Shown here piece after piece: positions 11,549-52,255 of a stretch of DNA of 61,766 bases. The stretch is from NCBI GenBank assembly GCA_944391695.1, contig CALXUO010000005.1, positions 1 through 61,766 of the forward strand. The letters are read 5' to 3'. Position 1 is the stretch's first letter, and every line of letters begins with the position of its first letter. The position numbers and the translations under genes are program-made. The DNA is from an uncultured Alphaproteobacteria bacterium (GTDB lineage: Bacteria > Pseudomonadota > Alphaproteobacteria > RF32 > CAG-239). The notes below the pieces were generated by a model. The model searched no databases. It worked only from the letters and a program-made list of their open reading frames with translations, and had not been told where the DNA came from.

Positions 11549-14365
11549 ATGGCTTTTGACTTTAGTTCGTATGAGCAATTGCTTAATGAGGACACAACCT
11601 CGCCTGAAAGCATCAATGAAATGATTAAAGAGCTTGATACTTTAGATGTAGGGCTTGCTTATGACGATTTGGTAAAACTAAGAAGCTTAAAAGAACGGGC
11701 CTCAGAAAAATTGAACGCTAAACCTCAATCTTCGCCACAAAGAAATAATAATGAAAATATTGCCCCTAATGCAAATATAAGGGTTGAAGACGGCCCGAGC
11801 TTATTAGACAGCAAACAAAACAATCAAGAGCGACGCGAAATGGTGGGTAAAGAATTTAGAGATGGAGTTTTTACCTCTCAGGCTCATAGAGATTTTTATA
11901 TTGAGCAGTTGCTTAAAGGCGAAATTGAGATACCTTCATCAGAAGAAAATCGCGCCAAACTGGATGCATTGACCGGAGGGAGCGAAGGAATTAGCTCTTT
12001 GCAAGAAAAATTAGCCCTTGAAACCGTGCAAAAATATGCTCTAAATTATACAGAAAATACAACTTATGGGGCCGCGAAAGAAAAAGTTATTGATGATAAA
12101 CAAAGTAAAAAACTTAATGATTTGGGCCTTAAGGATGCTCTTAATAACTACCTTAAAGTGTCTAAAAAAGATGAAACTGCTTTTATTTTGCGAGAAGCAC
12201 AAAAAGCCGTTATTGACTGCCAAATAGGCGGAGAAAAACCTTATAAAGAATATGTTGATAAACTTACAACTCTCAGAGATAACACCTCAAAGTGGCGCTT
12301 TATTCGCCGAAGAAAACTTAATAAAGTTATTAAAGACTTGGATCCGGTCGCTTATTGGAAAAATAAAAGAGATCAATATTTGGAGCCGACATCTTTATCC
12401 AGAGCGGATGATTTAATGGCTCAGAATCGTTATATCAAAAAAGCCGATAAGGCCGATAAAGACAAACAATTTGATAAAATTGCTTCCAAGCTTGAGGATG
12501 CAATCGAAATAAGGCGCAAAGATGCCTCTATGAAATGGTTTAGCAAAAATTTTGGCGCTAAAATTAAATTAAAAACTAAAATTTTGTTCAACAAATCGCC
12601 AAAACGTTTGACCAAAAAATTGCTTAAGGTCGGAACAATCAAAAAACTTAATGATTATGTCGGAAAACTTGACACCGATATTACAGCAGCAAAACAAGAA
12701 GAATTTGCAGATCGGCATATGATTAAAGCCAAAAATTTGAAGCTTAATTTGTTGAACACTTTAAAATCAAGCTGCCAAGCGCAAAGTTCCAACCTGGAAG
12801 GCCAAAGAAAATCGGTAATTGAAGCCTTGGGTAATGATGATATTGCTACTGCTGAAAAAACTTTTGATAATTTTATGCAAAATTTGCAAAAACGCGTAAA
12901 TGTTGTTAATGAACAATATGAAGAAAGTTTGCAATCATCTCAGCAGGTTAAACTTTATAAAAAGCTTCATGGTGAATTGCCCAAAAATGGTAAGGTAAAT
13001 CAGGAAATTATTACTACCAGTACTGTCTTGCAACAATTGTGCCAAGAGATGGGGTATCATGATATTGAATCCCTGCTCAGAGCAAACAACGTGCCTGAAA
13101 AAGAAATTGCCGCTATCAAAGAGAAACTGGAACCTAAAAAACAAGAAAGACCTGAAAAGCTATCAGAGCCTATTAATGAAGTTAAAGAAGATACCCCGAT
13201 TAATGAAGTTAGAGAAAAAACACCTGTTAATGAACAGCAAGCTGCTACATTGGGAAAAGATGCTAACATCAGAGGAGAAAATGCCGATTTGGCTTTGGAG
13301 GGGTATACCAAAGATGAAAATGCTTATGTTAATGATGACACCAAAGATACAGTTTTATTCAATATTGCCGAAGATAACTCCCGTTATGATTTGATTACCA
13401 AAGATAAAGACGGTAATGATCGTGAACCTACGGAAGCTGAAGTTAAGGCCATGGTTCAACAAATGGCTAAAGATGGTATTAAAGAAATTACGCTTGAACC
13501 AGGTTTTGCTCCGGAAACTGAAGCTTTGTTTGTAAAAACTTTAGAAGAAAATAACATTGCAATAACCAACAAAGAAGAAGTTGAGCAACGACAAGCAGAA
13601 GCTGACAAACTGAATATTGTGCAAAATGAGGATGAGGGCAAGCCTAAAGATGAGACCAAACCGGTTGTGCAAAACGAGGCTACTGATAAAACAGAAGAAA
13701 AACCAAACAGACGGAAAAATACTAGACAGAAACCTGAGCAAGTTATCAAGTTAGAAAGAGGAGAAATTGATTATAAGACCGTGTTTACCGCCGCAATCAA
13801 TTCAGCCAAAACTGCTGAGGAGCAAATTGATAAAATTAAATTGATTGATCGGATACAAAAAGGTGAAAAACTGAGTTCAGAAGAAATTAACCGATCTCTC
13901 GGTAAGGGGACTCAACAAGCAGAGTTTTTCCTTAATTTGTCTGCTGTAAGAGATTATGAAAAAGATCCCGACTATAAAAAAGATAAAGATTTGAGACAAT
14001 GGGTTGAAGATGAAAAAGCGGCGGCCGGAATTGTTGGTGGGAGTGTAGAGAAGTTGTCAGTTAAACTTTCAACAATAACTGATTTGGCTCAAGGTCATAA
14101 GACCTTGGGGGATCTTGAAAAAGATAATGCTTATAGAAACCTGCCCAAATATGCTCAACAAGCAGCCAAAAATTTGGTGAACCTTAATAATAATGAAGAT
14201 CTTTCCCCTAAGCAAAAAACTGTGTTGCAAGGGCAGATTTTAAACCGCGTAATTGAGGGAAAAGAGCAGTACAAAAAGCATACTGAGATGGTTTTGAAAA
14301 CTAAGGACAAAGGCAAATCCAAGGATGCTCCCAAAATTTCTCAAAAAGATAATGGACGTTCTTAA
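11549..14365 (+). CDS. Large hydrophilic hypothetical protein (938 aa, Lys/Glu-rich)
   Basis: Long ORF with AAGGAG Shine-Dalgarno and a downstream terminator; no signal peptide, TM segment or recognisable domain. Confidence 0.85.
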   Translation: MAFDFSSYEQLLNEDTTSPESINEMIKELDTLDVGLAYDDLVKLRSLKERASEKLNAKPQSSPQRNNNENIAPNANIRVEDGPSLLDSKQNNQERREMVGKEFRDGVFTSQAHRDFYIEQLLKGEIEIPSSEENRAKLDALTGGSEGISSLQEKLALETVQKYALNYTENTTYGAAKEKVIDDKQSKKLNDLGLKDALNNYLKVSKKDETAFILREAQKAVIDCQIGGEKPYKEYVDKLTTLRDNTSKWRFIRRRKLNKVIKDLDPVAYWKNKRDQYLEPTSLSRADDLMAQNRYIKKADKADKDKQFDKIASKLEDAIEIRRKDASMKWFSKNFGAKIKLKTKILFNKSPKRLTKKLLKVGTIKKLNDYVGKLDTDITAAKQEEFADRHMIKAKNLKLNLLNTLKSSCQAQSSNLEGQRKSVIEALGNDDIATAEKTFDNFMQNLQKRVNVVNEQYEESLQSSQQVKLYKKLHGELPKNGKVNQEIITTSTVLQQLCQEMGYHDIESLLRANNVPEKEIAAIKEKLEPKKQERPEKLSEPINEVKEDTPINEVREKTPVNEQQAATLGKDANIRGENADLALEGYTKDENAYVNDDTKDTVLFNIAEDNSRYDLITKDKDGNDREPTEAEVKAMVQQMAKDGIKEITLEPGFAPETEALFVKTLEENNIAITNKEEVEQRQAEADKLNIVQNEDEGKPKDETKPVVQNEATDKTEEKPNRRKNTRQKPEQVIKLERGEIDYKTVFTAAINSAKTAEEQIDKIKLIDRIQKGEKLSSEEINRSLGKGTQQAEFFLNLSAVRDYEKDPDYKKDKDLRQWVEDEKAAAGIVGGSVEKLSVKLSTITDLAQGHKTLGDLEKDNAYRNLPKYAQQAAKNLVNLNNNEDLSPKQKTVLQGQILNRVIEGKEQYKKHTEMVLKTKDKGKSKDAPKISQKDNGRS
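13169..13234 (+). repeat. 27-bp in-frame tandem repeat, about 2.5 copies
   Basis: Encodes PINEVKEDT-PINEVREKT-PVNE; copies start at 13169, 13196 and 13223. Confidence 0.75.
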
Positions 14366-43258: not shown

Positions 43259-44698
43259 ATGTTTGAGAAATCTCGCAAGGCTTTGGGGTTTGAAAAAAAT
43301 ACTCAATTTGTGGAAAGAATTCTGTTTTTAAGTTTTCCTACCGCGTTGGTGTTTATGGTGTTGGCGGCCTTTAATTTGGTTGATCCGACGCTGGCTATTA
43401 TATCTTTGGCGGCGGTGGTGGTTTTTAACATCGTGTTATTGTTCCCTCTAACCTTTGAACTGCAGCAAATTAAAAAATATGTTACCAAACTGGCCAAAGG
43501 TGAAATCTCGGAGCAAGATGTTTTGGCCTTGTCCGAAGACGAATCGAAAGAACTTATTGAAGCAATTAACAATATGCATCATTTTTGGGCGCAAAAAGCC
43601 GACCTTTTGGAAGCACAAACCATCTCCGATACTGCCGTGTTGGACAGCCTGCCCGATCCCATCATGATGATTGATAGGTCCGGAAATGTTATCGGTGCCA
43701 ACTTGTCGGCCCGCACCTCTTTTGGTGAAAAAATTACGGATAAAAATATTGACAAAGTTTTTCACTCCAACAACTTTATTAATGCTGTTTCCAGAGTTTT
43801 AAACAAAGAAACAACCTCTGAAAATCTTATCTTTTATGTTGAAAAACCAATTGACCAAAAATTTTATGCCCATATCAAACAGCTTCCTTGGTTGTCAAAA
43901 GGCAAAGCAGTAGCCGTCATTTCAATATATGACCTCACCAAGTCAATGAAAATTGAAAAAATGCAATCTGATTTCGTGGCCAATGCCAGTCATGAGCTAC
44001 GCACTCCCTTATCGATTGTATCTGGTTTTGTCGAAACCTTGCAAACATCGGCCAAAGATGATGCGGAAGCGCAGCAAAAATTTTTGCAAATTATTGCCGA
44101 CCAGGTGGAATATATGTCCAATTTAATTGAAAATTTGCTCTCGCTTTCAAGAATTGAACTTAATCAAGACGAGCATCCTCAAGACAAAGTTGATGTCGAG
44201 CAAATTGTTGATGATGCCGCCAAAGCCTTAGAAATAAAAGCGCAAAATAACAACATGACAATTCATATTATTAAAGACGCCAATATTGCTCCTATCAAAG
44301 CCGACGCTCAACAAATTAAACAAATTGTGCAAAATCTTATTGATAATGCCATAAAATACGGCAACTTAGGAACCGAAGTTACCATAAGAATTAATAATGT
44401 TGAGAAGATACCTCCTTCCAAAACAATAAAAACCGCCAAAGGTAAAGCTGTTGCCATTTCGGTCAACAACAAAGGACCTAAAATCGGGCCGGAAAAACTG
44501 GCGCGTTTGACCGAAAGATTTTATCGCCTGCAGGAACATAAAGACAAAAATATCAAAGGTACCGGCCTGGGACTTGCCATTGCCAAACACATCATTATCA
44601 GGCATCTCGGAAATATTACCGTAAATTCCAATGGATATAACGGCACAACCTTTACTATTTATTTGCCGGTGTTTGAATCTGACGATGCCTCTTTATAG
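43259..44698 (+). CDS. phoR: PhoR-like sensor histidine kinase (PAS-HisKA-HATPase)
   Basis: DFVANASHELRTPLS, NLIDNAIKYG, RLTERFYR, GTGLGLAI; two N-terminal TM helices. Confidence 0.8.
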   Translation: MFEKSRKALGFEKNTQFVERILFLSFPTALVFMVLAAFNLVDPTLAIISLAAVVVFNIVLLFPLTFELQQIKKYVTKLAKGEISEQDVLALSEDESKELIEAINNMHHFWAQKADLLEAQTISDTAVLDSLPDPIMMIDRSGNVIGANLSARTSFGEKITDKNIDKVFHSNNFINAVSRVLNKETTSENLIFYVEKPIDQKFYAHIKQLPWLSKGKAVAVISIYDLTKSMKIEKMQSDFVANASHELRTPLSIVSGFVETLQTSAKDDAEAQQKFLQIIADQVEYMSNLIENLLSLSRIELNQDEHPQDKVDVEQIVDDAAKALEIKAQNNNMTIHIIKDANIAPIKADAQQIKQIVQNLIDNAIKYGNLGTEVTIRINNVEKIPPSKTIKTAKGKAVAISVNNKGPKIGPEKLARLTERFYRLQEHKDKNIKGTGLGLAIAKHIIIRHLGNITVNSNGYNGTTFTIYLPVFESDDASL

Positions 44699-46344
44699 AA
44701 ATGCATAAATACAACCGGTTTGATGTCGGTTGCTTTATATATTTGTTTGCGAATACGCGCCGCCAAATATTCTTTAATTTGATTTTCGTTATTGTTGAGC
44801 TTAATTATCTCTTTGGCTATATCAGCCTTAATGCTTGCTATTATGTCTGTTTTAAGAGACGTAAACGCATCTTCTTCCAAAATATCAATTGAACTTATTT
44901 GCAAATCTTTAAGATGCCAATCTTTGGCAAAAATAACGCTGATAAATACCGAACAATTAAAAGCTATCCTTTTGCGATTTTTTATAAGCTGAGAATCCAG
45001 CGCCGTCAGTTGGTGGCGGTCAACACCTAATTTGCGGGTAAATACTTCTGATACAATGTCGGCTCTTTTGTCTTGCAACAACACTACTTCGCCGTTTCTT
45101 ACTATCAAAACATTGCCTACACCGTTTTCTTGAGCCAATTTCTTTTGTTTGCGAAGACTGCGCTTATCTCCGTGAACCGGTATTACCGTTTGTGGCTTGA
45201 GAAGACGGTACATCTCCAAAATTTGGCTTGGTGTGGCATGGCCGGAAGCATGTACTTCATAGTCCTCGGTTGAGATTACGTTAACCCCCATATCGCGCAG
45301 CTTTTCTTGCATACGCTCAATTTTTTCCTCGTTACCGGGAATTATCTTTGAGGAAAAAATAATATTATCGCCTTGCTTGAGGACTATATCTTTGCTCTCG
45401 CCGTTGACAATACGAGTAAGAGCCGAGCGATAATCTCCTTGTGAGCCGGCACAAATATATAAAATTTTATCAAGCGGAATATCCTTGGCATCTTTAATAT
45501 CATAGGCTTTGGGACAATCTTTGAGATAACCGCATTCTTTGGCAATCTTAAAGTTTTGGTTGAGCGAATGTCCCGATATTACCGCCGTACGATTGGCCGC
45601 ATCGGCGGCTAAAATCAAGCTCTCCAATCGCATAATATTGGAGGCAAAACATGTGGCAACAATGGTGTTGGACAGAGCAGGAACTAGTTTCAACAAATTT
45701 TGCCTTACCTCATATTCGCTCGGCTCCGGCGTCGTCTCTCCCATATTGGTAGAATCGCCAACATAAAGAGTTACTCCTTGCTTGGCTATATTATGCAGCT
45801 CTTCGTAATCGGTGGGCAATATCTTGGTCTTGCCATCGTCAAAACGCCAGTCGGTAGCATGCAAAATATTGCCATAGCGCGTTTTAATAAAAAGGCCTGC
45901 GCTTTGCGGAACCGAATGAACCAACGATACAAATTCAACCTCAAAATTTTTGAGCTTTACTATCGGGTTTAATGTTACCGAATAAAGCTTGGCAAAATTT
46001 TCCAAATGATATTCTTTAAGTCGTGCTTTGATATGGCCAAGCGTAAAATCATTGGCATATACCGGACAATCCAACATAGGCAGAACATGACCAATGGCTC
46101 CGTAGTGGTCCTCATGTCCGTGAGTAATGAACATTGCCTCGATATCATCGCGGTAGGTCTCTAAAAAAGAGGCATCGGCAAGCCCCATCTCCATACCTGG
46201 AAAATCATTACCCAAAAAACCATATCCCGCATCAACAACTATTATTTTGCTGTCAACAATATAGGCAAACATATTAAAACCGACTTCTTCGGCACCACCC
46301 AATGCCACAAAATATATACCCTCTTTGTTAAATCCTTCTATCAT
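44659..46344 (-). CDS. rnj: Ribonuclease J
   Basis: ALGGAEEVG, ITHGHEDHYGA, HATDWRFD, FASNIMR, HASGHA, PVHGD. Confidence 0.93.
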   Translation of the reverse strand: MIEGFNKEGIYFVALGGAEEVGFNMFAYIVDSKIIVVDAGYGFLGNDFPGMEMGLADASFLETYRDDIEAMFITHGHEDHYGAIGHVLPMLDCPVYANDFTLGHIKARLKEYHLENFAKLYSVTLNPIVKLKNFEVEFVSLVHSVPQSAGLFIKTRYGNILHATDWRFDDGKTKILPTDYEELHNIAKQGVTLYVGDSTNMGETTPEPSEYEVRQNLLKLVPALSNTIVATCFASNIMRLESLILAADAANRTAVISGHSLNQNFKIAKECGYLKDCPKAYDIKDAKDIPLDKILYICAGSQGDYRSALTRIVNGESKDIVLKQGDNIIFSSKIIPGNEEKIERMQEKLRDMGVNVISTEDYEVHASGHATPSQILEMYRLLKPQTVIPVHGDKRSLRKQKKLAQENGVGNVLIVRNGEVVLLQDKRADIVSEVFTRKLGVDRHQLTALDSQLIKNRKRIAFNCSVFISVIFAKDWHLKDLQISSIDILEEDAFTSLKTDIIASIKADIAKEIIKLNNNENQIKEYLAARIRKQIYKATDIKPVVFMHFYKEASSDSNTGK

Positions 46345-46353
46345 AAATTATCC

Positions 46354-47082
46354 TTAATCTTTTAAAAAAATATCGCCTACCGCAATATTGGTAATTTTAT
46401 CTCCTTGTTTTAGCAATAAATAACCTTGTTCGTCAATACCCTTAAATATGCCTTTTTGTTGTTTTGCCCCCTGATTTATTAAAATTTCTTTATCAATGCC
46501 CGCAGCATAGCTCATCCATTTTTGTCGCAACGGCAAAAATCCGTCCTTTTTACAGATGGCAAGATTGCTATTAAAATGCCTTAAATATGTTTGCAAAAAT
46601 TGTTCGCGCGAAATATCACAGCCCATACTTCTTAAATCTGCCACTTTATACAAAATATTGTCTGCTTTAGGTGCCGATACAAGATTAACGCCAATTCCTA
46701 CAATAACCGTATTTGATTCGCCCGTTTCTATCAATATCCCACTTATCTTGCCGCCTTTAACCAACACATCATTGGGCCATTTGATGCTTACTTCAAGTTT
46801 GGGAGCCAATGCTTTAACACTTTCGGCAATACTTACAGAGCTTATGAACACCAAATATGATATCGGAACATCAAGGTAAAAAAGCTGACTAAAAAACAGA
46901 TTGCCCTTGAGTGATACCCATTTCCGCCCTATGCGGCCACGCCCCTGTTTTTGACTTAGGGCCGTAAACACTTTCGGCTTTCCGTCAAAATCTTTGCTCG
47001 CGGCATAGGCCGTTGTGTTGGTTGAATTAACTTCACCAAAATCCTGCCACAACCAATTTTCTATTTCTGATATTTTGTTTAT
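46354..47082 (-). CDS. birA: Biotin--[acetyl-CoA-carboxylase] ligase; start probably ATA at 47082
   Basis: STN, QKQGRGRIGRKWVS, KWPNDVLV, KISGILIE, VGIGVNL. The ORF track starts at TTG 47052, but the frame is open back to ATA 47082, which lies 6 nt after AGGAGG. Confidence 0.9.
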   Translation of the reverse strand: MNKISEIENWLWQDFGEVNSTNTTAYAASKDFDGKPKVFTALSQKQGRGRIGRKWVSLKGNLFFSQLFYLDVPISYLVFISSVSIAESVKALAPKLEVSIKWPNDVLVKGGKISGILIETGESNTVIVGIGVNLVSAPKADNILYKVADLRSMGCDISREQFLQTYLRHFNSNLAICKKDGFLPLRQKWMSYAAGIDKEILINQGAKQQKGIFKGIDEQGYLLLKQGDKITNIAVGDIFLKD

Positions 47083-48503
47083 GATATGCCTCCTAAAATC
47101 ACCAAAGCATTGCTAATTAGCCAGGCCGGATTAATCAGAGATGCCAAAATAAACGTAACATTTATAAATAAGCAAATATAAATGGCTTTGTCGGCACGGT
47201 CAAACTTGCTAACCAGCGGTTCAAAATAAATAATCCTGATAACCTGGAAACAAGCGCTTGCCACAAACAACAGGCTTATGAGTAAAACTCCCATCAGAAA
47301 CCAAGAATTGTCGGCCACAAGATTATTGATTATTGATAAATAGCCAAAAAAGCCCAATGTTGGCGCCAGGCCTATCAATGAAAACATAAAAATCAGCAAA
47401 GCCGCCGACATATATGGACGAAGCCGATAAAAACCACTTATGTACGTAATGTCACTGATATATTCTCCCTTGGATTTAAGCCCCAAAAATACGGTATAAA
47501 CACCCGCCAATGACAAAATGGCAATAATCATATAGGCAAACGAGGCAATTACCGCAGAACCCGAAAAATGTACCATGCCGGTAAGGGCAAAACCAATACA
47601 GTAAATGCTTAAAAAAGCAAACTTTTTGCGAATGTTGTTTTCAGAATTGGCCGAAAAAGCGCCGATAAGCAAAGACAAAACCGCAAAAAAGCATAAAAGC
47701 GGAGCAACAAAATCGGTAAATGCAACCAAGCATCCTTTCATCAGATTTATTAGGGCGCCAATATAAATTAACGGCGGGACAAGCGTTATAAATCCGCAAA
47801 CCGGCAAAACAGCCTCCGAGATGGCGGCAATAAACCAGAGATGAAACGGAACCAAGCTTAGCAAAAACATAAAACAGCCGATTATCATAACCACCGCAAG
47901 CAAAGATGTCGGCGCAAAGTTCTTTTCGGCGGCATAAAAATCTCTGATGATTGCATACTCAAACGAACCGGTTTGAATATAAATTATATACACTCCCAAC
48001 CATAACAATAGGCAAAAAACAGCGGCAAAAAAGCCATAGGCTTTGGCAATAGGCTCAACCCGCTCCGTATCCCAATGACGCAAAATCAGCCGACGATAAA
48101 AGAAACAAATAAACGGTATTATAACCGCCAGACTTATAAGCGAAGTTGCCGAGGCCAAAATATCAAAACCAAACAACAAAGCAAAACAAACGGCATAGAA
48201 TTTAAAAGACGGACGATTTTTATTTAAAAACCATTTGGATGATAAATAAAACCACGCCCAAGCCATAAGATAGGCAAAGGTCTTAAAAATGGTGCTTAAC
48301 GGAGTATTGGCCCAAAGCAAAGGAAAAGCACTTTTGTTATAAAAGACAATTGAAAACAATATGACCGCAACCAAAAAAATCTGAGCCAAAGAGGCAAAAG
48401 TTTTGGGAGTTTGGACTTTGCGAAATTTAGCTACCAAACCGCCGACAACAAAAAAGCCTAATAAAAAAATTTCGGGAAGCAGAATAAACCAATTTTCAAG
48501 CAA
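47079..48503 (-). CDS. nuoN: NuoN-like antiporter subunit, highly diverged
   Basis: LLPEIFL, LSLVPFHLW, FMFSLIGLAPTLGF, QVIRIIYF; followed by birA-rnj as in alphaproteobacterial nuo operons. Confidence 0.8.
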   Translation of the reverse strand: MLENWFILLPEIFLLGFFVVGGLVAKFRKVQTPKTFASLAQIFLVAVILFSIVFYNKSAFPLLWANTPLSTIFKTFAYLMAWAWFYLSSKWFLNKNRPSFKFYAVCFALLFGFDILASATSLISLAVIIPFICFFYRRLILRHWDTERVEPIAKAYGFFAAVFCLLLWLGVYIIYIQTGSFEYAIIRDFYAAEKNFAPTSLLAVVMIIGCFMFLLSLVPFHLWFIAAISEAVLPVCGFITLVPPLIYIGALINLMKGCLVAFTDFVAPLLCFFAVLSLLIGAFSANSENNIRKKFAFLSIYCIGFALTGMVHFSGSAVIASFAYMIIAILSLAGVYTVFLGLKSKGEYISDITYISGFYRLRPYMSAALLIFMFSLIGLAPTLGFFGYLSIINNLVADNSWFLMGVLLISLLFVASACFQVIRIIYFEPLVSKFDRADKAIYICLFINVTFILASLINPAWLISNALVILGGIS

Positions 48504-48514
48504 CGCCTCTCTCC

Positions 48515-49945
48515 TTATTCATCAATAACAAACCACAAGGGCCTAATAAATGACATTATCAGCATAAAGACAATAAAAATCATAAACACAAACTGATAAA
48601 GCGGCATATCTTCTGCCTTGCCCAAAACACATTCTTTATTGTCGGTTTTGAGGCGAAACATTTCTTTGATTAAAGCTGCCGCCGCAATAATGCAAGCCAG
48701 CATTAAGAAAACACCGATTTGAATGTGGGTTGACAATAAACGCGATAAAATCAAAAAATTGTTGGTGAACATTGCCGATAGCGGAAAACCCGCGGCGGCA
48801 AAAGTCAAAAACGAATAAAGAAACGATAATCTTTTGGCGCGGCACAAAAAGCCCGATGAGTTGCTCTCATGCAATTGCTCTTGCCGATATACATAGTTTG
48901 AAACAATCTCCAAAGCCCCAAAAACCATAACAAATCCAAACAAGGCATATCCTATATTTTGCAAAACCAATTTATCCTGGCTGAAAATACCTAATAAATA
49001 CAAAATATAGTAAACGGTTACAAAGGCAAAATTTTTGTATTGTGCATCGCGGTTGATAAAAGCAATCAAGCTTATAAACAGCATGGTAATCGTGCCGATA
49101 ATGTTTAGCCAAATAAAATATTGCGATACCTCAAGCGGAATATTTGAGGGCCAAAATCGGGCAAAGGCATAAATTCCGCTTAACGGTAAAACCGATGAGG
49201 CTATAAAAACCAAAGGATTCCTCAGTTTGGAGCTGACTGAGGATATCCAATAATGAAACGGCCAAATCGGTATGCGAAAAATAAATCCCAGAGCCAAAGC
49301 AGGCCATATCCACCAACCGTAATTTTGATGCCACAAAATATCTCCGGTTCTGTCAAGCGTTAAACTGCCATAGAATTTGTAAATCAGCAAAACCGCCGTA
49401 AATAAAATAAACGCACCTATCAGATTGTAAAGAAAAAATCCGCCTAAACGCTCCGGCCGCTTAAAGCCCCCAAACATCCCTATCAGCATAAACAGCGGCA
49501 GCAACATCGCCTCAAAAAAGATAAAAAACGAGAATATATCGGCCGACACAAACAAACCTGTCGACATACTCAAAAACAAAAGTGTAAACACCATTAGAGG
49601 TTTTTGGTTAACAATATCGTCTCTAACAGCTATAACCCCCATCAACAACACCAGATGAACCGCTAAAATCATCAGCAACGACAAGTTGTCTACCGCAAAC
49701 ACCAAGTTAATATCCGGCACCGTCAGCCAATCAAATTTTTCAAACAACTGCAATTTGAGCGTGGTTTCGTCAATTAACATAAAAACACGCCAAATCATAA
49801 CCAAATTGGCTATTATGCTAAAAACCGCAACGTTGAAACTGTTGTGAGTTTTTTTATCAATATCTTCCTTAGCCGTTAAGGTAAACAACATACCTAAAAA
49901 AGGGATGCAGATAATAAGTGATAGTATGGCAAACGGACTATTCAT
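48515..49945 (-). CDS. nuoM: NuoM-like antiporter subunit, diverged
   Basis: FAVDNLSLLMIL, FFIFFEAMLLP, IPIWPFHYW, AGFP. Confidence 0.85.
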   Translation of the reverse strand: MNSPFAILSLIICIPFLGMLFTLTAKEDIDKKTHNSFNVAVFSIIANLVMIWRVFMLIDETTLKLQLFEKFDWLTVPDINLVFAVDNLSLLMILAVHLVLLMGVIAVRDDIVNQKPLMVFTLLFLSMSTGLFVSADIFSFFIFFEAMLLPLFMLIGMFGGFKRPERLGGFFLYNLIGAFILFTAVLLIYKFYGSLTLDRTGDILWHQNYGWWIWPALALGFIFRIPIWPFHYWISSVSSKLRNPLVFIASSVLPLSGIYAFARFWPSNIPLEVSQYFIWLNIIGTITMLFISLIAFINRDAQYKNFAFVTVYYILYLLGIFSQDKLVLQNIGYALFGFVMVFGALEIVSNYVYRQEQLHESNSSGFLCRAKRLSFLYSFLTFAAAGFPLSAMFTNNFLILSRLLSTHIQIGVFLMLACIIAAAALIKEMFRLKTDNKECVLGKAEDMPLYQFVFMIFIVFMLIMSFIRPLWFVIDE

Positions 49946-51593
49946 AAATATAGTACCCCAAATAAAGCATTATAACAATCAAACCGCTCAAAATACTTAA
50001 AATGTAATTTTTGGTTTGGGCTTCCTGCAGTTGATGCAGGCCAGCTATTGTTTTAGACGAATTTTCGGATACCGATCCGATAATGTTGTGCTCTATGACC
50101 ACGACATCAAAAACAAGCCACAAAATTCTGCCCAAGAACTGGAGCGGAATTATGATTAATCTTTCGTATATCCAAGACAAAATATCACTCTGCCACAAAG
50201 GTAATTGCCCAAACTTTATTGCCCACAACGTCGGAAAGGCCAAAAAGACCAATAGCCCAACCCCCATAAAAACATAGAATTCAAAATATTGCCAGGAGAG
50301 TCCTTGCCAAACCATAAATACACCAATAACAAACAGCGGAAGCCAATATAGCGCCCCAACGCTCTTGGCAAAAGCCAAAACCTTTTCATCTGCTCTGGTT
50401 TTGCCTAAATAAATCAGCCGCAGATTAAAACATAATATGCCAATATAAACTAATGCAAAAATATTGCTGCCGATATCCTTGGCCAGGGGCAAAAATGTGG
50501 CAGATATTGCCGTTATAATCACCAAACTTGTCAATAAATTTAAACTGCCATAACGCCAAAAACCTCCTAAATAGCCGATATTATTTTCTTCTGAGGCCGT
50601 AACTGAGGCCATGATGAAGATTACTGAGGTCAAAAAGTTGATGCTTAGTATTTGAGGAACAAAAAAGTATATCTCGGTCGAATCGCCGCTTATCTTGAGC
50701 AACATATAGGCATATGACAGCAAAAAAAGCGAAATCACCTTGGATTTGAGATTGAGATTAATCAAGGCACCGATACCGGCTGACAAAACTGATAACAAAC
50801 ACCACCAAGGCAAGATATTTCCTGGAATCGGCGAGGCTTGAAACAAAGGATATAATTTGGCCGCCAATATAAGCCCCGATAGGGGAACAGAAAACATCAT
50901 AATGCCTGATATGCGGTTAAACGAAATCTCTTTTAAGGAAAAATAATGACCGTTAAATAAAAACAAGCCGCATTTTGAACCAACCGCAAATAACAACAGG
51001 CAGGCAACCATATCTTTATGACTGCCCAAATCAGAATATTGCGGCAAAGATTTAAGACTGATGCTGGATGTTGCGGCATAGACTATGGCTAATGCCATAA
51101 AAACCGCCATGTCTGCCAAAAAATTAAATATAAATACTTTTTTCTTGGGCTGGATTTGATCCGGCATATAAAACCCTATGACCGAAAACATACTACTGGC
51201 AAACATCAACTGCAAAAAATCGTGGCTTGAAGCCAGTAATATCATGCTCACAAAGTTTAGCAACATTAAGGTATTGATATGTAAAGAATGATGCTCTGAG
51301 GCAAACACGGTATTGAGATAGACCTGGGCCGCCAACAAACAAATCAAAGGAAAAAACATCTGCCGCATATGTGATGATGATGAAATATTAATATCGGCTT
51401 TCAGCACTTCATAAGGAAGCCACTGATAAATAAACCCCGAAGATGAGGCGTTAAGACTGTCCATAAAAAAATAAGAAATAATGCACAGCCCGCTTAAAAC
51501 CAAAACCGACCATATACGCCTGCGACGACCTTGCGTTATCAATAATGATGCCGCCGCTATGGCAATAAGACATATAAATAACTGAACAACCAT
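49938..51593 (-). CDS. nuoL: NuoL-like antiporter subunit, highly diverged
   Basis: FIYQWLP, FNFLADMA, AVGSK, GYLGGFW; C-terminal lateral helix (VFDVVVIE...LQEAQTKNY). Confidence 0.72.
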   Translation of the reverse strand: MVVQLFICLIAIAAASLLITQGRRRRIWSVLVLSGLCIISYFFMDSLNASSSGFIYQWLPYEVLKADINISSSSHMRQMFFPLICLLAAQVYLNTVFASEHHSLHINTLMLLNFVSMILLASSHDFLQLMFASSMFSVIGFYMPDQIQPKKKVFIFNFLADMAVFMALAIVYAATSSISLKSLPQYSDLGSHKDMVACLLLFAVGSKCGLFLFNGHYFSLKEISFNRISGIMMFSVPLSGLILAAKLYPLFQASPIPGNILPWWCLLSVLSAGIGALINLNLKSKVISLFLLSYAYMLLKISGDSTEIYFFVPQILSINFLTSVIFIMASVTASEENNIGYLGGFWRYGSLNLLTSLVIITAISATFLPLAKDIGSNIFALVYIGILCFNLRLIYLGKTRADEKVLAFAKSVGALYWLPLFVIGVFMVWQGLSWQYFEFYVFMGVGLLVFLAFPTLWAIKFGQLPLWQSDILSWIYERLIIIPLQFLGRILWLVFDVVVIEHNIIGSVSENSSKTIAGLHQLQEAQTKNYILSILSGLIVIMLYLGYYIYE

Positions 51594-51639: not shown

Positions 51640-51664
51640 AATAAGGGCTTTTAAAGCCCTTATT
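51640..51664. terminator. Intrinsic terminator upstream of nuoL
   Basis: AATAAGGGCTTT-T-AAAGCCCTTATT. Confidence 0.8.
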
Positions 51665-51693: not shown

Positions 51694-52017
51694 CTAGTTC
51701 AAAACTGCTTTCAAATCCCTTATCAATCTGACGGGAACCATATACTCTCTGGCAACCTCGTCTCCGTCTATCTCGGCAACCAAAACCTCGTCAACCGCTT
51801 TTAGAGGCTGGCGCGCCTCGTGATTAATGTTGCCCAAAAATACCGAGCTTTCCCGACTCCGGTATAATAACGCAGTATCCCCACCATCGTAAACAAAGCG
51901 CGGATTTTCCGGACCACCGCGACGTTGCTTAATCATAATCAATATTTCGCCGGCGGCATTTTGCAGAATTTCATAAGTTCCTTCGTTGGCTTCTGCCAGA
52001 TTTTGATTGTTTTCCAT
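51694..52017 (-). CDS. Hypothetical protein (107 aa)
   Basis: ORF with GAGGA Shine-Dalgarno and a downstream terminator; no motif recognised. Confidence 0.75.
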   Translation of the reverse strand: MENNQNLAEANEGTYEILQNAAGEILIMIKQRRGGPENPRFVYDGGDTALLYRSRESSVFLGNINHEARQPLKAVDEVLVAEIDGDEVAREYMVPVRLIRDLKAVLN

Positions 52018-52179: not shown

Positions 52180-52255
52180 GGGCTCGTAGCTCAGTCGGTA
52201 GAGCATTTGACTTTTAATCAAAGGGTCGGCGGTTCGAATCCGCCCGAGCTCACCA
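52180..52255 (+). tRNA. tRNA-Lys(TTT)
   Basis: 76-nt cloverleaf GGGCTCG...TTTGA-CT-TTT-AA-TCAAA...GGTTCGAATCC...CGAGCTC-A-CCA. Confidence 0.97.

What the first reader, a model, noticed from the sequence alone, without database searches (positions are those of the whole stretch)
47079..51593. Orphan nuoL-nuoM-nuoN with the proton-pumping charged residues largely erased but ORFs intact
Seen: only L, M and N remain, in the ancestral nuoLMN-birA-rnj context. Upstream are a terminator, an unrelated ORF and tRNA-Lys, with no nuoA-K. By-eye alignment to E. coli gives the following. In NuoN, E133 is P, K217 is L (FLLSLVPFHLW vs FKLSLVPFHLW), K247 is P and K395 is Y. In NuoM, E144 is kept, K234 is R, K265 is L and E407 is N. 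In NuoL, E144 is S, K229 is kept and H254 is lost, while the lateral helix is retained. Known: these Glu/Lys residues form the central hydrophilic axis required for proton translocation in complex I and Mrp antiporters. Inference: a relic of the complex I membrane arm kept in frame for a new role (scaffold, passive channel or different transporter) in a lineage that may have lost respiration.
Basis: partly seen in the sequence, partly recalled or inferred. Interest (0 to 1): 0.75.

Follow-up and report, generated by a model that had tools for sequence, protein, structure and literature searches.

The report
Orphan non-pumping complex I membrane arm
A family of uncultured, fermenting gut Alphaproteobacteria has lost respiratory complex I except its three large "proton-pump" membrane subunits; these have lost almost all pumping residues yet are kept by selection as strong as that on housekeeping genes, so they must now do something else.

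Summary
Window 47079-51593 (minus strand) carries three intact genes descended from nuoL, nuoM and nuoN, in the ancestral alphaproteobacterial context nuoN-birA-rnj.

- **Residues.** The one refinement is in L: the TM5 Glu is removed by a 5-residue deletion of the GWEGV motif, not replaced by Ser.
- **Fixed across the family.** In M, across 15 genera, K234 is R, K265 is L or V, and E407 is N.
- **No partner set.** NuoD is absent from all 282 species genomes of the family. NuoH, NuoJ and NuoK/MrpC are also missing, and so are cytochrome bd and, in 38 of 41 genomes, any UbiA-type prenyltransferase. The cells have Rnf, an F-type ATP synthase and a soluble HydABC [FeFe]-hydrogenase.
- **Not decay.** The M-like gene is intact in 264 of 283 genomes of the order. 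dN/dS in close pairs is 0.03-0.20 for L, 0-0.09 for M and 0.07-0.14 for N, like birA and rnj.
- **Assembly.** The lateral helix is the best-conserved part of L, and a recurrent 436-aa form of L loses four helices but keeps it.

My reading is a free-standing L-M-N plate that is selected for, does no redox chemistry and does not pump in the canonical way. Its function is unknown. I found no description of it in the six full-text searches run.

The parts
49938..51593 (-). NuoL-derived subunit (551 aa). The TM5 GWEGV motif is deleted and TM7 Lys (K207) is kept. The TM8 His, TM11 Lys and TM12 Lys/Asp are lost. The lateral helix (about residues 471-522) and TM16 (527-550) are kept, with D496 and E501 invariant.
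   Evidence: ORF. No Pfam, NCBIfam or phmmer-PDB hit. hhalign 99.8%, E 5e-27. Profile search of the PDB hits only NuoL (8qby_L, E 4.6e-8, best over the lateral helix and TM16). AF2 pLDDT 76, and all listed Foldseek matches are NuoL/ND5/NdhF chains. Conservation map.
48515..49945 (-). NuoM-derived subunit (476 aa), the best conserved of the three. E145 is kept. K234 is R224, K265 is L255, E407 is N396, the junction His is replaced, and the TM11 His residues are Y and F.
   Evidence: PF00361 at 86 bits; TIGR01972 at 164 bits against a cut-off of 264. Alignment to 8qby_M. Genus-wide and family-wide columns.
47079..48503 (-). NuoN-derived subunit (474 aa). All four axis residues are lost: E133 is P130, K217 is L214, K247 is P244 and K395 is Y388.
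   Evidence: PF00361 at 93 bits; TIGR01770 at 162 bits against a cut-off of 333. Alignments to 3rko_N and 8qby_N. Columns.
51694..52017 (-). Conserved 107-aa soluble protein of unknown fold, directly upstream. A possible fourth component; the link is unproven.
   Evidence: 66-100% identity across most of the genus (50% in one genome). It lies on the same strand just upstream of L in 34 of 34 genus genomes and 11 of 14 other genera, with a gap of only 9-28 nt in three genera. No Pfam match and no fold match. In one metagenome contig it lies on the opposite strand.
51640..51664 (-). Intrinsic-terminator-like hairpin (11-bp stem followed by a T run) between the 107-aa ORF and L.
46354..47052 (-). 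birA (biotin protein ligase), tightly packed after N; ancestral synteny.
   Evidence: Pfam PF03099/PF02237. Synteny.
44659..46344 (-). rnj (RNase J), last gene of the packed block.
   Evidence: Pfam PF22505/PF07521. Synteny.
52180..52255 (+). tRNA-Lys(UUU), the upstream boundary where nuoA-K would be expected.
   Evidence: ARAGORN. Rfam. The same tRNA is found in L004.

Best explanation
The three genes are vertical descendants of the alphaproteobacterial nuoL-nuoM-nuoN genes. They survived when this strictly fermentative gut lineage lost the rest of complex I, its quinones and its terminal oxidases.

**Shown.** They encode full-length, correctly folded antiporter-like proteins under strong purifying selection. 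They have lost the Lys/Glu/His relay that moves protons in complex I and Mrp. No NuoA-K, Mrp or [NiFe]-hydrogenase partner exists in the genomes.

**Inferred.** The proteins still assemble as an L-M-N plate clamped by the NuoL lateral helix. That helix and TM16 are the most conserved part of L, and they survive even where four helices of L are deleted. The plate works without redox input.

N looks like an inert filler: its former channel positions hold variable hydrophobic residues. M carries the only family-wide conserved polar set, namely R224, H231, K304, Y313 and N396, usually with E145.

**My split, given that the plate is functional.**
- About 45%: a structural or anchoring membrane platform.
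- About 35%: a passive or differently coupled ion or small-molecule path centred on M and the N-terminal half of L.
- About 20%: something else.
For: **Homology and origin.**. Nuo-type synteny with birA-rnj appears in canonical relatives and in 35 genus genomes plus 14 other genera.

**Erased axis, fixed family-wide.**

**Purifying selection.** NG86 dN/dS in pairs with unsaturated dS is 0.03-0.20 for L, 0-0.09 for M and 0.07-0.14 for N, against 0.06-0.22 for birA and 0.04-0.11 for rnj. The M-like gene is present and open in 264 of 283 species genomes and in 20 of 24 genera. M shows a long stem branch (about 2 substitutions per site) followed by a constrained crown.

**No partners.**
- NuoD is in 0 of 282 family genomes.
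- NuoH is absent from the window's genome.
- Local HMMs find no NuoH, NuoJ or NuoK.
- PF00420 passes its cut-off in 0 of 41 genomes.
- PF00361 hits only M and N in the genome.

**No quinone respiration.**. Rnf, ATP synthase and HydABC are present.

**Assembly.** The lateral-helix segment 476-500 is the conservation peak of L, with D496 and E501 invariant. The 436-aa form of L lacks residues 342-457 but keeps the lateral helix and TM16, and it recurs in at least 10 protein clusters. M-TM5 Glu co-varies with a basic residue at N-TM12 over 66 genomes.
Against: - There is no direct evidence of expression or of complex formation.
- Three or four genera lack the M-like gene altogether (g32, g38, g41, perhaps g37; the g38 genomes are 99-100% complete). 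The module is therefore dispensable in some backgrounds.
- L evolves fast (28-59% identity within the genus), and its C-terminal half is poorly conserved.
- Conserved core residues in M could reflect packing alone.
- The co-variation rests on few independent events.
- Many of the genomes are MAGs. A very divergent small partner such as a NuoK-like protein under 100 aa could escape the HMMs.
Confidence: 0.78

Rival explanations
1. The trio is still an ion translocator, such as a secondary cation/proton antiporter or a uniporter. It would use a rewired set of residues (Arg, His, Tyr and Asn in M; K152, D161 and K207 in L) and serve ion homeostasis alongside Rnf and the ATP synthase.
For: - The substituted residues in M are themselves invariant across 15 genera (R, L or V, N, Y) despite 31-50% overall identity.
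- The prolines and glycines of the broken helices TM7 and TM12 are kept: P226, P229, G386 and P388 are invariant.
- The uptake-type Lys K304 is kept.
- L keeps TM6 K/R and Asp and TM7 Lys in nearly all genera examined.
- The abstract of PMC4938563 (seen) describes a deletion-strain model system used to test functional differentiation of these subunits. From my own knowledge, stand-alone antiporter-like subunits can complement Mrp deletions there.
Against: - Arg cannot shuttle protons the way Lys does.
- The central TM8 Lys is Leu, the TM12 Glu is Asn, and the junction His is gone.
- N has no conserved polar axis at all.
- The second half-channel of L is deleted outright in a whole sub-lineage.
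- No MrpC, E, F or G-like small subunits were found.
Confidence: 0.25
2. This is plain decay. The genes are functionless relics kept open only by chance, or only because transcription and translation through them feed the essential downstream genes birA and rnj.
For: - The trio is tightly coupled to birA and rnj (4-8 nt overlaps).
- The stem branch is long, and L is highly divergent.
- A few genera have lost the trio.
Against: - dN/dS of 0.03-0.20 equals that of the housekeeping neighbours.
- About 1,500 codons stay open in all 49 loci read in full, and the M-like frame is open in 264 species genomes.
- Specific replacement residues are invariant.
- A requirement for read-through would not constrain the amino-acid sequence.
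- The in-frame 116-aa deletion preserves topology, removing four TMs, and keeps the C-terminus.
Confidence: 0.03
3. The trio is the membrane arm of a still-complete but unrecognised complex. It would dock to a non-homologous or extremely divergent input module: Rnf, the HydABC hydrogenase, or the conserved 107-aa protein together with unknown partners.
For: - The 107-aa ORF is the most conserved gene of the cluster and sits directly upstream in nearly all genomes. Gaps of 9-28 nt in three genera imply co-transcription.
- Rnf and HydABC are the main redox machines of these cells.
Against: - G020 is 100% complete and lacks Rnf, as do G001 and G007, yet all three keep L-M-N.
- HydABC is a soluble enzyme and is encoded elsewhere, on C38.
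- The 107-aa protein has no cofactor motifs and no fold match. It is followed by a terminator in this genus and lies on the opposite strand in one contig.
- Without NuoH, A, J and K there is no known coupling interface.
Confidence: 0.12

Closest known systems
Distal membrane module of respiratory complex I: NuoL/NuoM/NuoN (Nqo12/13/14; ND5/ND4/ND2), alphaproteobacterial type (Paracoccus denitrificans, PDB 8qby)
   Same: - Direct descent, shown by the best sequence and fold matches.
- The same gene order, L-M-N-birA-rnj.
- The same 14-16 TM fold, with the prolines of the broken helices.
- The NuoL lateral helix and TM16 are retained.
   Different: - No NuoA-K, no quinone and no redox input.
- The Lys/Glu/His central axis is erased in all three subunits.
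- L is about 90 aa shorter and escapes Pfam and NCBIfam.
- M and N score far below the NCBIfam cut-offs (164 against 264 bits; 162 against 333 bits).
HycC of E. coli formate hydrogenlyase (PDB entry of PMC9474812)
   Same: [quoted passage not shown] The authors saw no clear path to the P side. It is a precedent for partly degenerate members of the family.
   Different: HycC is a single subunit, still bound to a NuoH-like anchor (HycD) and a [NiFe] hydrogenase. It keeps most of its other axis residues. Here there are three subunits, no anchor and no redox module.
Mrp (Mnh/Pha) multisubunit cation/proton antiporter (MrpA/MrpD)
   Same: It is a redox-independent complex built from NuoL-like and NuoM/N-like subunits, which shows the fold can work without a redox arm.
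   Different: Mrp needs MrpB, C, E, F and G and keeps the Lys/Glu axis. No MrpC/NuoK-like gene is present (0 of 41 over the cut-off). Synteny and best hits are Nuo-type, not Mrp-type.
DabB/DabA (DAB) CO2-uptake pairs and cyanobacterial NdhD3/F3-CupA
   Same: PF00361 proteins re-used outside classical complex I to power a different reaction through a soluble partner.
   Different: Those keep the charged axis and pair with a large carbonic-anhydrase-like partner. Here the only conserved neighbour is a 107-aa protein without a known fold. DabA (PF10070) was not searched genome-wide.

Membership tests
Respiratory complex I (NDH-1, NuoA-N) | Q-module: NuoD (49-kDa subunit, PF00346) present | tested here: not met
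   Found in 0 of 1 own genome, 0 of 37 genus genomes and 0 of 282 family genomes. Present in 22 of 24 other alphaproteobacterial genera and 11 of 14 control genomes.
Respiratory complex I (NDH-1, NuoA-N) | Membrane coupling subunits NuoH, NuoJ and NuoK present | tested here: not met
   PF00146 is absent from the window's genome. Local HMMs built from 9 canonical operons find no NuoH, NuoJ or NuoK. PF00420 passes the cut-off in 0 of 41 genomes. NuoA and NuoB were not searched separately.
Respiratory complex I (NDH-1, NuoA-N) | N-module NuoE/F/G | tested here: not met
   The E/F/G-like genes on C38:44471-48457 carry the H-cluster motifs TSCCP, MPCxxKxxE and ExMACxxGCxxGGGQP. They are therefore the HydCBA [FeFe]-hydrogenase, not complex I.
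Antiporter-like subunit family (Pfam PF00361 Proton_antipo_M) | Sequence or fold membership | tested here: met
   M scores 86 bits and N 93 bits against a cut-off of 21.5. L fails Pfam. L passes hhalign (99.8%), the profile search of the PDB, and Foldseek (probability 1.0, TM 0.6-0.68).
Antiporter-like subunit family (Pfam PF00361 Proton_antipo_M) | Functional axis: TM5 Glu, TM7 Lys, TM8 Lys/His, TM12 Lys/Glu | tested here: not met
   N keeps 0 of 4. M keeps 1 of 4, plus a conservative K-to-R change. L keeps 1 (TM7 Lys) of 5-6. This holds across the genus and the family.
NCBIfam NuoM (TIGR01972) / NuoN (TIGR01770) / NuoL | Score above the curated cut-off | tested here: not met
   M scores 164.1 against 263.8. 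N scores 162.1 against 332.6. L has no hit.
Mrp-type multisubunit antiporter | MrpC (NuoK-like) and further small subunits; an MrpA-type fused L | tested here: not met
   PF00420 passes the cut-off in 0 of 41 genomes. PF00361 hits only two genes in the genome. The neighbours are the 107-aa ORF and birA. MrpE, F and G were not searched separately.
[quoted passage not shown] | NuoD-like large subunit and NuoH-like anchor | tested here: not met
   PF00346 is absent from the family. Only G037, of the sister family, has a hydrogenase-like split match. PF00146 is absent from the window's genome.
DAB (DabA/DabB) CO2 pump | Adjacent DabA (PF10070) partner | tested here: not met
   No large adjacent partner exists: the neighbours are a 107-aa ORF without a Pfam match, and birA.

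The most novel reading that the evidence does not exclude
L-M-N, perhaps with the conserved 107-aa protein, is an autonomous membrane machine that needs no redox input. The complex I "piston" architecture of lateral-helix clamp and broken helices would be kept for a new job. A buried set in M (Arg, His, Tyr and Asn, usually with Glu) would replace the Lys/Glu relay, for example as a gated ion or solute path, or as a mechanical or sensing element in quinone-free fermenters. It would then be the first natural case of antiporter-like subunits working with neither a redox arm nor the canonical charged axis.
Probability: 0.2. Interest if true: 0.9.

Novelty: new variant of a known kind. Interest (0 to 1): 0.7.

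Why it matters
The Lys/Glu axis of NuoL, M and N is central to every current model of proton pumping by complex I and Mrp. Its role is still being worked out by mutagenesis, for example in the 2026 Paracoccus/E. coli study read.

This family is a large natural experiment. At least 260 species keep the three subunits under housekeeping-level selection after the redox arm, the quinone and the axis itself were removed. It shows the fold has a selectable function independent of pumping.

It also gives concrete material for testing what the plate does on its own:
- invariant replacement residues;
- a topology-preserving four-helix deletion in L;
- an always-kept lateral helix.

For annotation, the M and N genes hit the NuoM and NuoN models below their cut-offs, and the L gene is labelled hypothetical in the named NCBI records. 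Counting them as evidence of respiration in gut MAGs would be wrong.

Tried and rejected
- **L, direct searches.** L alone gave nothing with Pfam, NCBIfam or phmmer against the PDB, even at E up to 10. Only profile and fold methods worked.
- **The 107-aa ORF.** It has no Pfam hit at E up to 10, no Foldseek PDB match (best E 0.4), and 672 homologue clusters, none with a Pfam domain and every source name given being "hypothetical protein".
- **Relic N-module.** I considered that the NuoE/F/G-like genes might be a relic N-module. Rejected: they are the HydCBA [FeFe]-hydrogenase.
- **Candidatus Enterousia.** I guessed the lineage might be Candidatus Enterousia (order Rs-D84). Rejected: those genomes are under 1 Mb (PMC12306168), whereas these are 1.2-2.0 Mb. 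The order has 283 species in 24 genera and may be the gut clade RF32/CAG-239, but that name is my inference and is unverified.
- **Rnf as partner.** Disfavoured: the G001/G007/G020 group lacks Rnf but keeps the trio.
- **Literature.** Six full-text searches found no description of an orphan degenerate L-M-N.
- **Sampling artefact.** The first "relatives" sample wrongly suggested the trait was confined to one genus. The order-wide search corrected this.

Full report
**What is there**

Window 47079-51593 holds three intact minus-strand ORFs of 551, 476 and 474 aa. They are packed tightly: L and M overlap by 8 nt, and the gaps through to the next two genes are 9-26 nt. Pfam identifies those two genes as birA and RNase J.

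Upstream lie three features:
- an intrinsic-terminator-like hairpin at 51664-51640;
- a soluble 107-aa ORF at 51694-52017;
- tRNA-Lys(UUU) at 52180-52255.

The rest of the window is ordinary chromosome: ThrRS, ComEC, AcrB, MalQ/GlgX/GlgB, MutS and a histidine kinase. The genome is 1.37 Mb in 64 contigs and is estimated 83% complete.

**Identity of the three proteins**

M and N pass Pfam PF00361 at 86 and 93 bits. Against the NCBIfam NuoM and NuoN models they fall far below the cut-offs: 164 against 264 bits, and 162 against 333 bits. Their best solved relatives are Paracoccus and E. coli NuoM and NuoN.

L hits nothing in Pfam, NCBIfam or the PDB as a single sequence. Three other tests show it is a NuoL homologue:
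- A profile of 31 genus orthologues aligns end to end with a profile of 9 canonical NuoL (hhalign 99.8%, E 5e-27, 528 columns).
- A 46-sequence profile finds only NuoL chains in the PDB. The best stretch is the lateral helix plus TM16.
- An AF2 model (pLDDT 76, pTM 0.77) has only NuoL/ND5/NdhF chains among its listed Foldseek matches, headed by the alphaproteobacterial enzyme (probability 1.0, TM 0.6-0.68).

Canonical alphaproteobacterial operons show the same nuoL-M-N-birA-rnj order. The trio is therefore a vertical remnant and not an Mrp or a transferred gene set.

**The erased axis**

| Subunit | Canonical position | Here |
|---|---|---|
| N | E133 | P130 |
| N | K217 | L214 |
| N | K247 | P244 |
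| N | K395 | Y388 |
| M | E144 | kept (E145) |
| M | K234 | R224 |
| M | K265 | L255 |
| M | E407 | N396 |
| L | K229 | kept (K207) |
| L | TM8 His, TM11 Lys, TM12 Lys/Asp | lost |

In M, the junction His of the PDAH motif and both TM11 His residues are also replaced. In L, the TM5 Glu is not substituted by Ser; the GWEGV motif is removed by a 5-residue deletion.

The changes are fixed:
- Within the genus, M has R in 33 of 33 sequences, L in 32 of 33 and N in 33 of 33. N has P in 30 of 34 and in 32 of 34 at the TM5 and TM8 positions.
- Across 15 genera, M always has R, L or V, N and H at these positions, and Y in 14 of 15 genera at the first TM11 His, although overall identity falls to 31-50%.
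- At the former channel positions, N carries variable, mostly hydrophobic residues.
- L always keeps the TM7 Lys and the two lateral-helix acidic residues.

**No partner set and no respiration**

| Component | Result |
|---|---|
| NuoD (PF00346), own genome | absent |
| NuoD, genus | 0 of 37 |
| NuoD, family | 0 of 282 |
| NuoD, other alphaproteobacterial genera | 22 of 24 |
| NuoH (PF00146), own genome | absent |
| NuoH, NuoJ, NuoK by local HMMs from 9 operons | none |
| NuoK/MrpC (PF00420) over cut-off | 0 of 41 |
| PF00361 in own genome | only M and N |
| Cytochrome bd | 0 of 41 |
| UbiA-type prenyltransferase | 3 of 41 (14 of 14 controls) |
| Rnf-Nqr (PF02508) | 37 of 41 |
| F-type ATPase c subunit | 41 of 41 |

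The only NuoD-like match in the order is a hydrogenase-like split hit in G037, which belongs to the sister family. The NuoE/F/G-like genes on C38 carry [FeFe] H-cluster motifs and are HydCBA. In the window's own genome, the Rnf cluster on C30 reads rnfB-C-D-G-E-A with ApbE and RseC.

The lineage is thus a quinone-free fermenter running on Rnf, ATP synthase and a hydrogenase.

**Selection**

NG86 dN/dS for pairs with unsaturated dS:

| Gene | dN/dS range | Note |
|---|---|---|
| L | 0.03-0.20 | G000 against G015: 0.196 |
| M | 0-0.09 | |
| N | 0.07-0.14 | G000 against G015: 0.072 |
| birA | 0.06-0.22 | control |
| rnj | 0.04-0.11 | control |

The M-like gene is present and open in 264 of 283 species genomes of the order, in 210 of 219 high-quality genomes, and in 20 of 24 genera. 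The six-gene synteny holds in 14 of 14 further genera sampled, except that the 107-aa ORF was detected in only 11 of them.

A search of 1.84 billion representative proteins finds about ten further clusters at 31-41% identity, and all nine full-length ones I read carry the same R/L/N signature. Canonical NuoM then appears at about 25% identity. A tree shows a long stem (about 2 substitutions per site for M) followed by a constrained crown. This fits change of function or stabilisation followed by maintenance. It does not fit decay.

Three genera, and possibly a fourth, have lost the gene entirely. One of them has 99-100% complete genomes. The module is therefore important but not universally essential.

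**Evidence on assembly**

Conservation in L peaks in the N-terminal half and in residues 476-500, the lateral helix, where D496 and E501 are invariant. Residues 251-475 are poorly conserved.

A 436-aa form of L recurs in at least ten protein clusters and several genomes. It lacks residues 342-457, which correspond to four TMs (roughly TM12-15), so topology is preserved. It keeps the lateral helix and TM16.

Over 66 genomes, the TM5 Glu of M co-occurs with a basic residue at TM12 of N: 27 to 18 when Glu is present, and 2 to 19 when it is absent. In one genus an acid appears at N-TM12 where M-TM5 has lost its Glu. This hints at a preserved N-M salt-bridge network. The independent events are few, so I treat it as suggestive only.

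**The 107-aa ORF**

- It is the most conserved gene of the block, at 66-100% identity across most of the genus (50% in one genome).
- It has no Pfam match and no fold match, despite a confident model with pLDDT 83.
- It sits directly upstream of L on the same strand in 34 of 34 genus genomes and in 11 of 14 other genera. The gap is only 9-28 nt in three genera.
- Against a link: it is followed by a terminator in this genus, and in one metagenome contig it lies on the opposite strand about 1 kb away.

I list it as a possible fourth component. The link is unproven.

**Interpretation**

Shown:
- homology and vertical origin;
- loss of the canonical axis;
- absence of any complex I, Mrp or [NiFe]-hydrogenase partner;
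- absence of quinone-linked respiration;
- purifying selection.

Inferred: the three proteins still form an L-M-N plate held by the lateral helix, and it acts without redox input. Buried charges replaced by Arg, Leu, Asn, Tyr, Pro and assorted hydrophobic residues point to a stabilised plate that does not pump. N looks like filler, and M carries the only conserved polar cluster.

I favour a structural or anchoring role (about 45%) over a rewired passive or secondary transporter (about 35%). Plain decay is excluded for practical purposes. A hidden redox partner is unlikely, and Rnf in particular is absent from three genomes that keep the trio.

**Comparison and novelty**

The closest known system is the distal module of alphaproteobacterial complex I. 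HycC of E. coli FHL, where the TM7 Lys is Leu and no clear exit path was seen, is a partial precedent (PMC9474812). It is still bound to its redox module, though. Mrp shows the fold can work without a redox arm, but Mrp keeps the axis and needs small subunits that are absent here.

I found no description of an orphan, axis-erased L-M-N in six full-text searches. Public records label L "hypothetical protein". Earlier notes of this scan on sister genomes reached the same reading. I re-derived it independently and extended it in four ways:
- to the family scale, with 283 genomes;
- to the junction His of M;
- to the topology-preserving deletion in L;
- to the N-M co-variation.

**Limits**

- There is no multimer model.
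- Most of the genomes are MAGs.
- Taxon names are hidden. RF32/CAG-239 is my guess only.

Noticed in passing
window 51694-52017 (-): A 107-aa soluble protein that is the most conserved gene of the cluster. It has 672 homologue clusters, none with a Pfam domain and every source name given being "hypothetical protein", no Pfam match, and a confident AF2 model (pLDDT 83; several beta strands plus two short helices) with no PDB fold match. It is almost always directly upstream of the L-like gene.
   Followed up: partly
L-like gene in G034, G009, G014 and G023; clusters P0162 and P0165-P0173: A recurrent 436-aa form of the L-like protein with an in-frame deletion of residues 342-457. That removes four TMs but retains the lateral helix and TM16.
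   Followed up: yes
own genome C38:44471-48457 (-): A HydC/HydB/HydA electron-bifurcating-type [FeFe]-hydrogenase operon with H-cluster motifs. It is the source of the NuoE/F/G-like hits.
   Followed up: partly
own genome C30:58079-64412 (-): A complete Rnf cluster (apbE, rseC-like, rnfB-C-D-G-E-A). The related genomes G001, G007 and G020 lack Rnf (G020 is 100% complete) but keep L-M-N.
   Followed up: partly
genera g32, g38, g41 (and g37) of the same family: These genera lack the M-like gene (no match at E up to 1e-40) and also lack NuoD, so the trio has been lost completely there. Which other genes were lost along with it was not examined.
   Followed up: no
M residue 145 and N residue 388, across 66 genomes: The TM5 Glu of M co-varies with a basic residue at TM12 of N. 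In genus g27, three genomes have Ala or Ser at M-TM5 and Glu at N-TM12, which may be a charge relocation at the N-M interface.
   Followed up: partly
window 11549-14365 (+): A 938-aa ORF with no Pfam match, inside the lowest-GC (0.35), strongly AT-skewed stretch of the window.
   Followed up: no
G006, G013 and G021 (same genus): Only 3 of 41 genus genomes carry a UbiA-family prenyltransferase. Its role there (quinone, haem O or other) is unknown.
   Followed up: no
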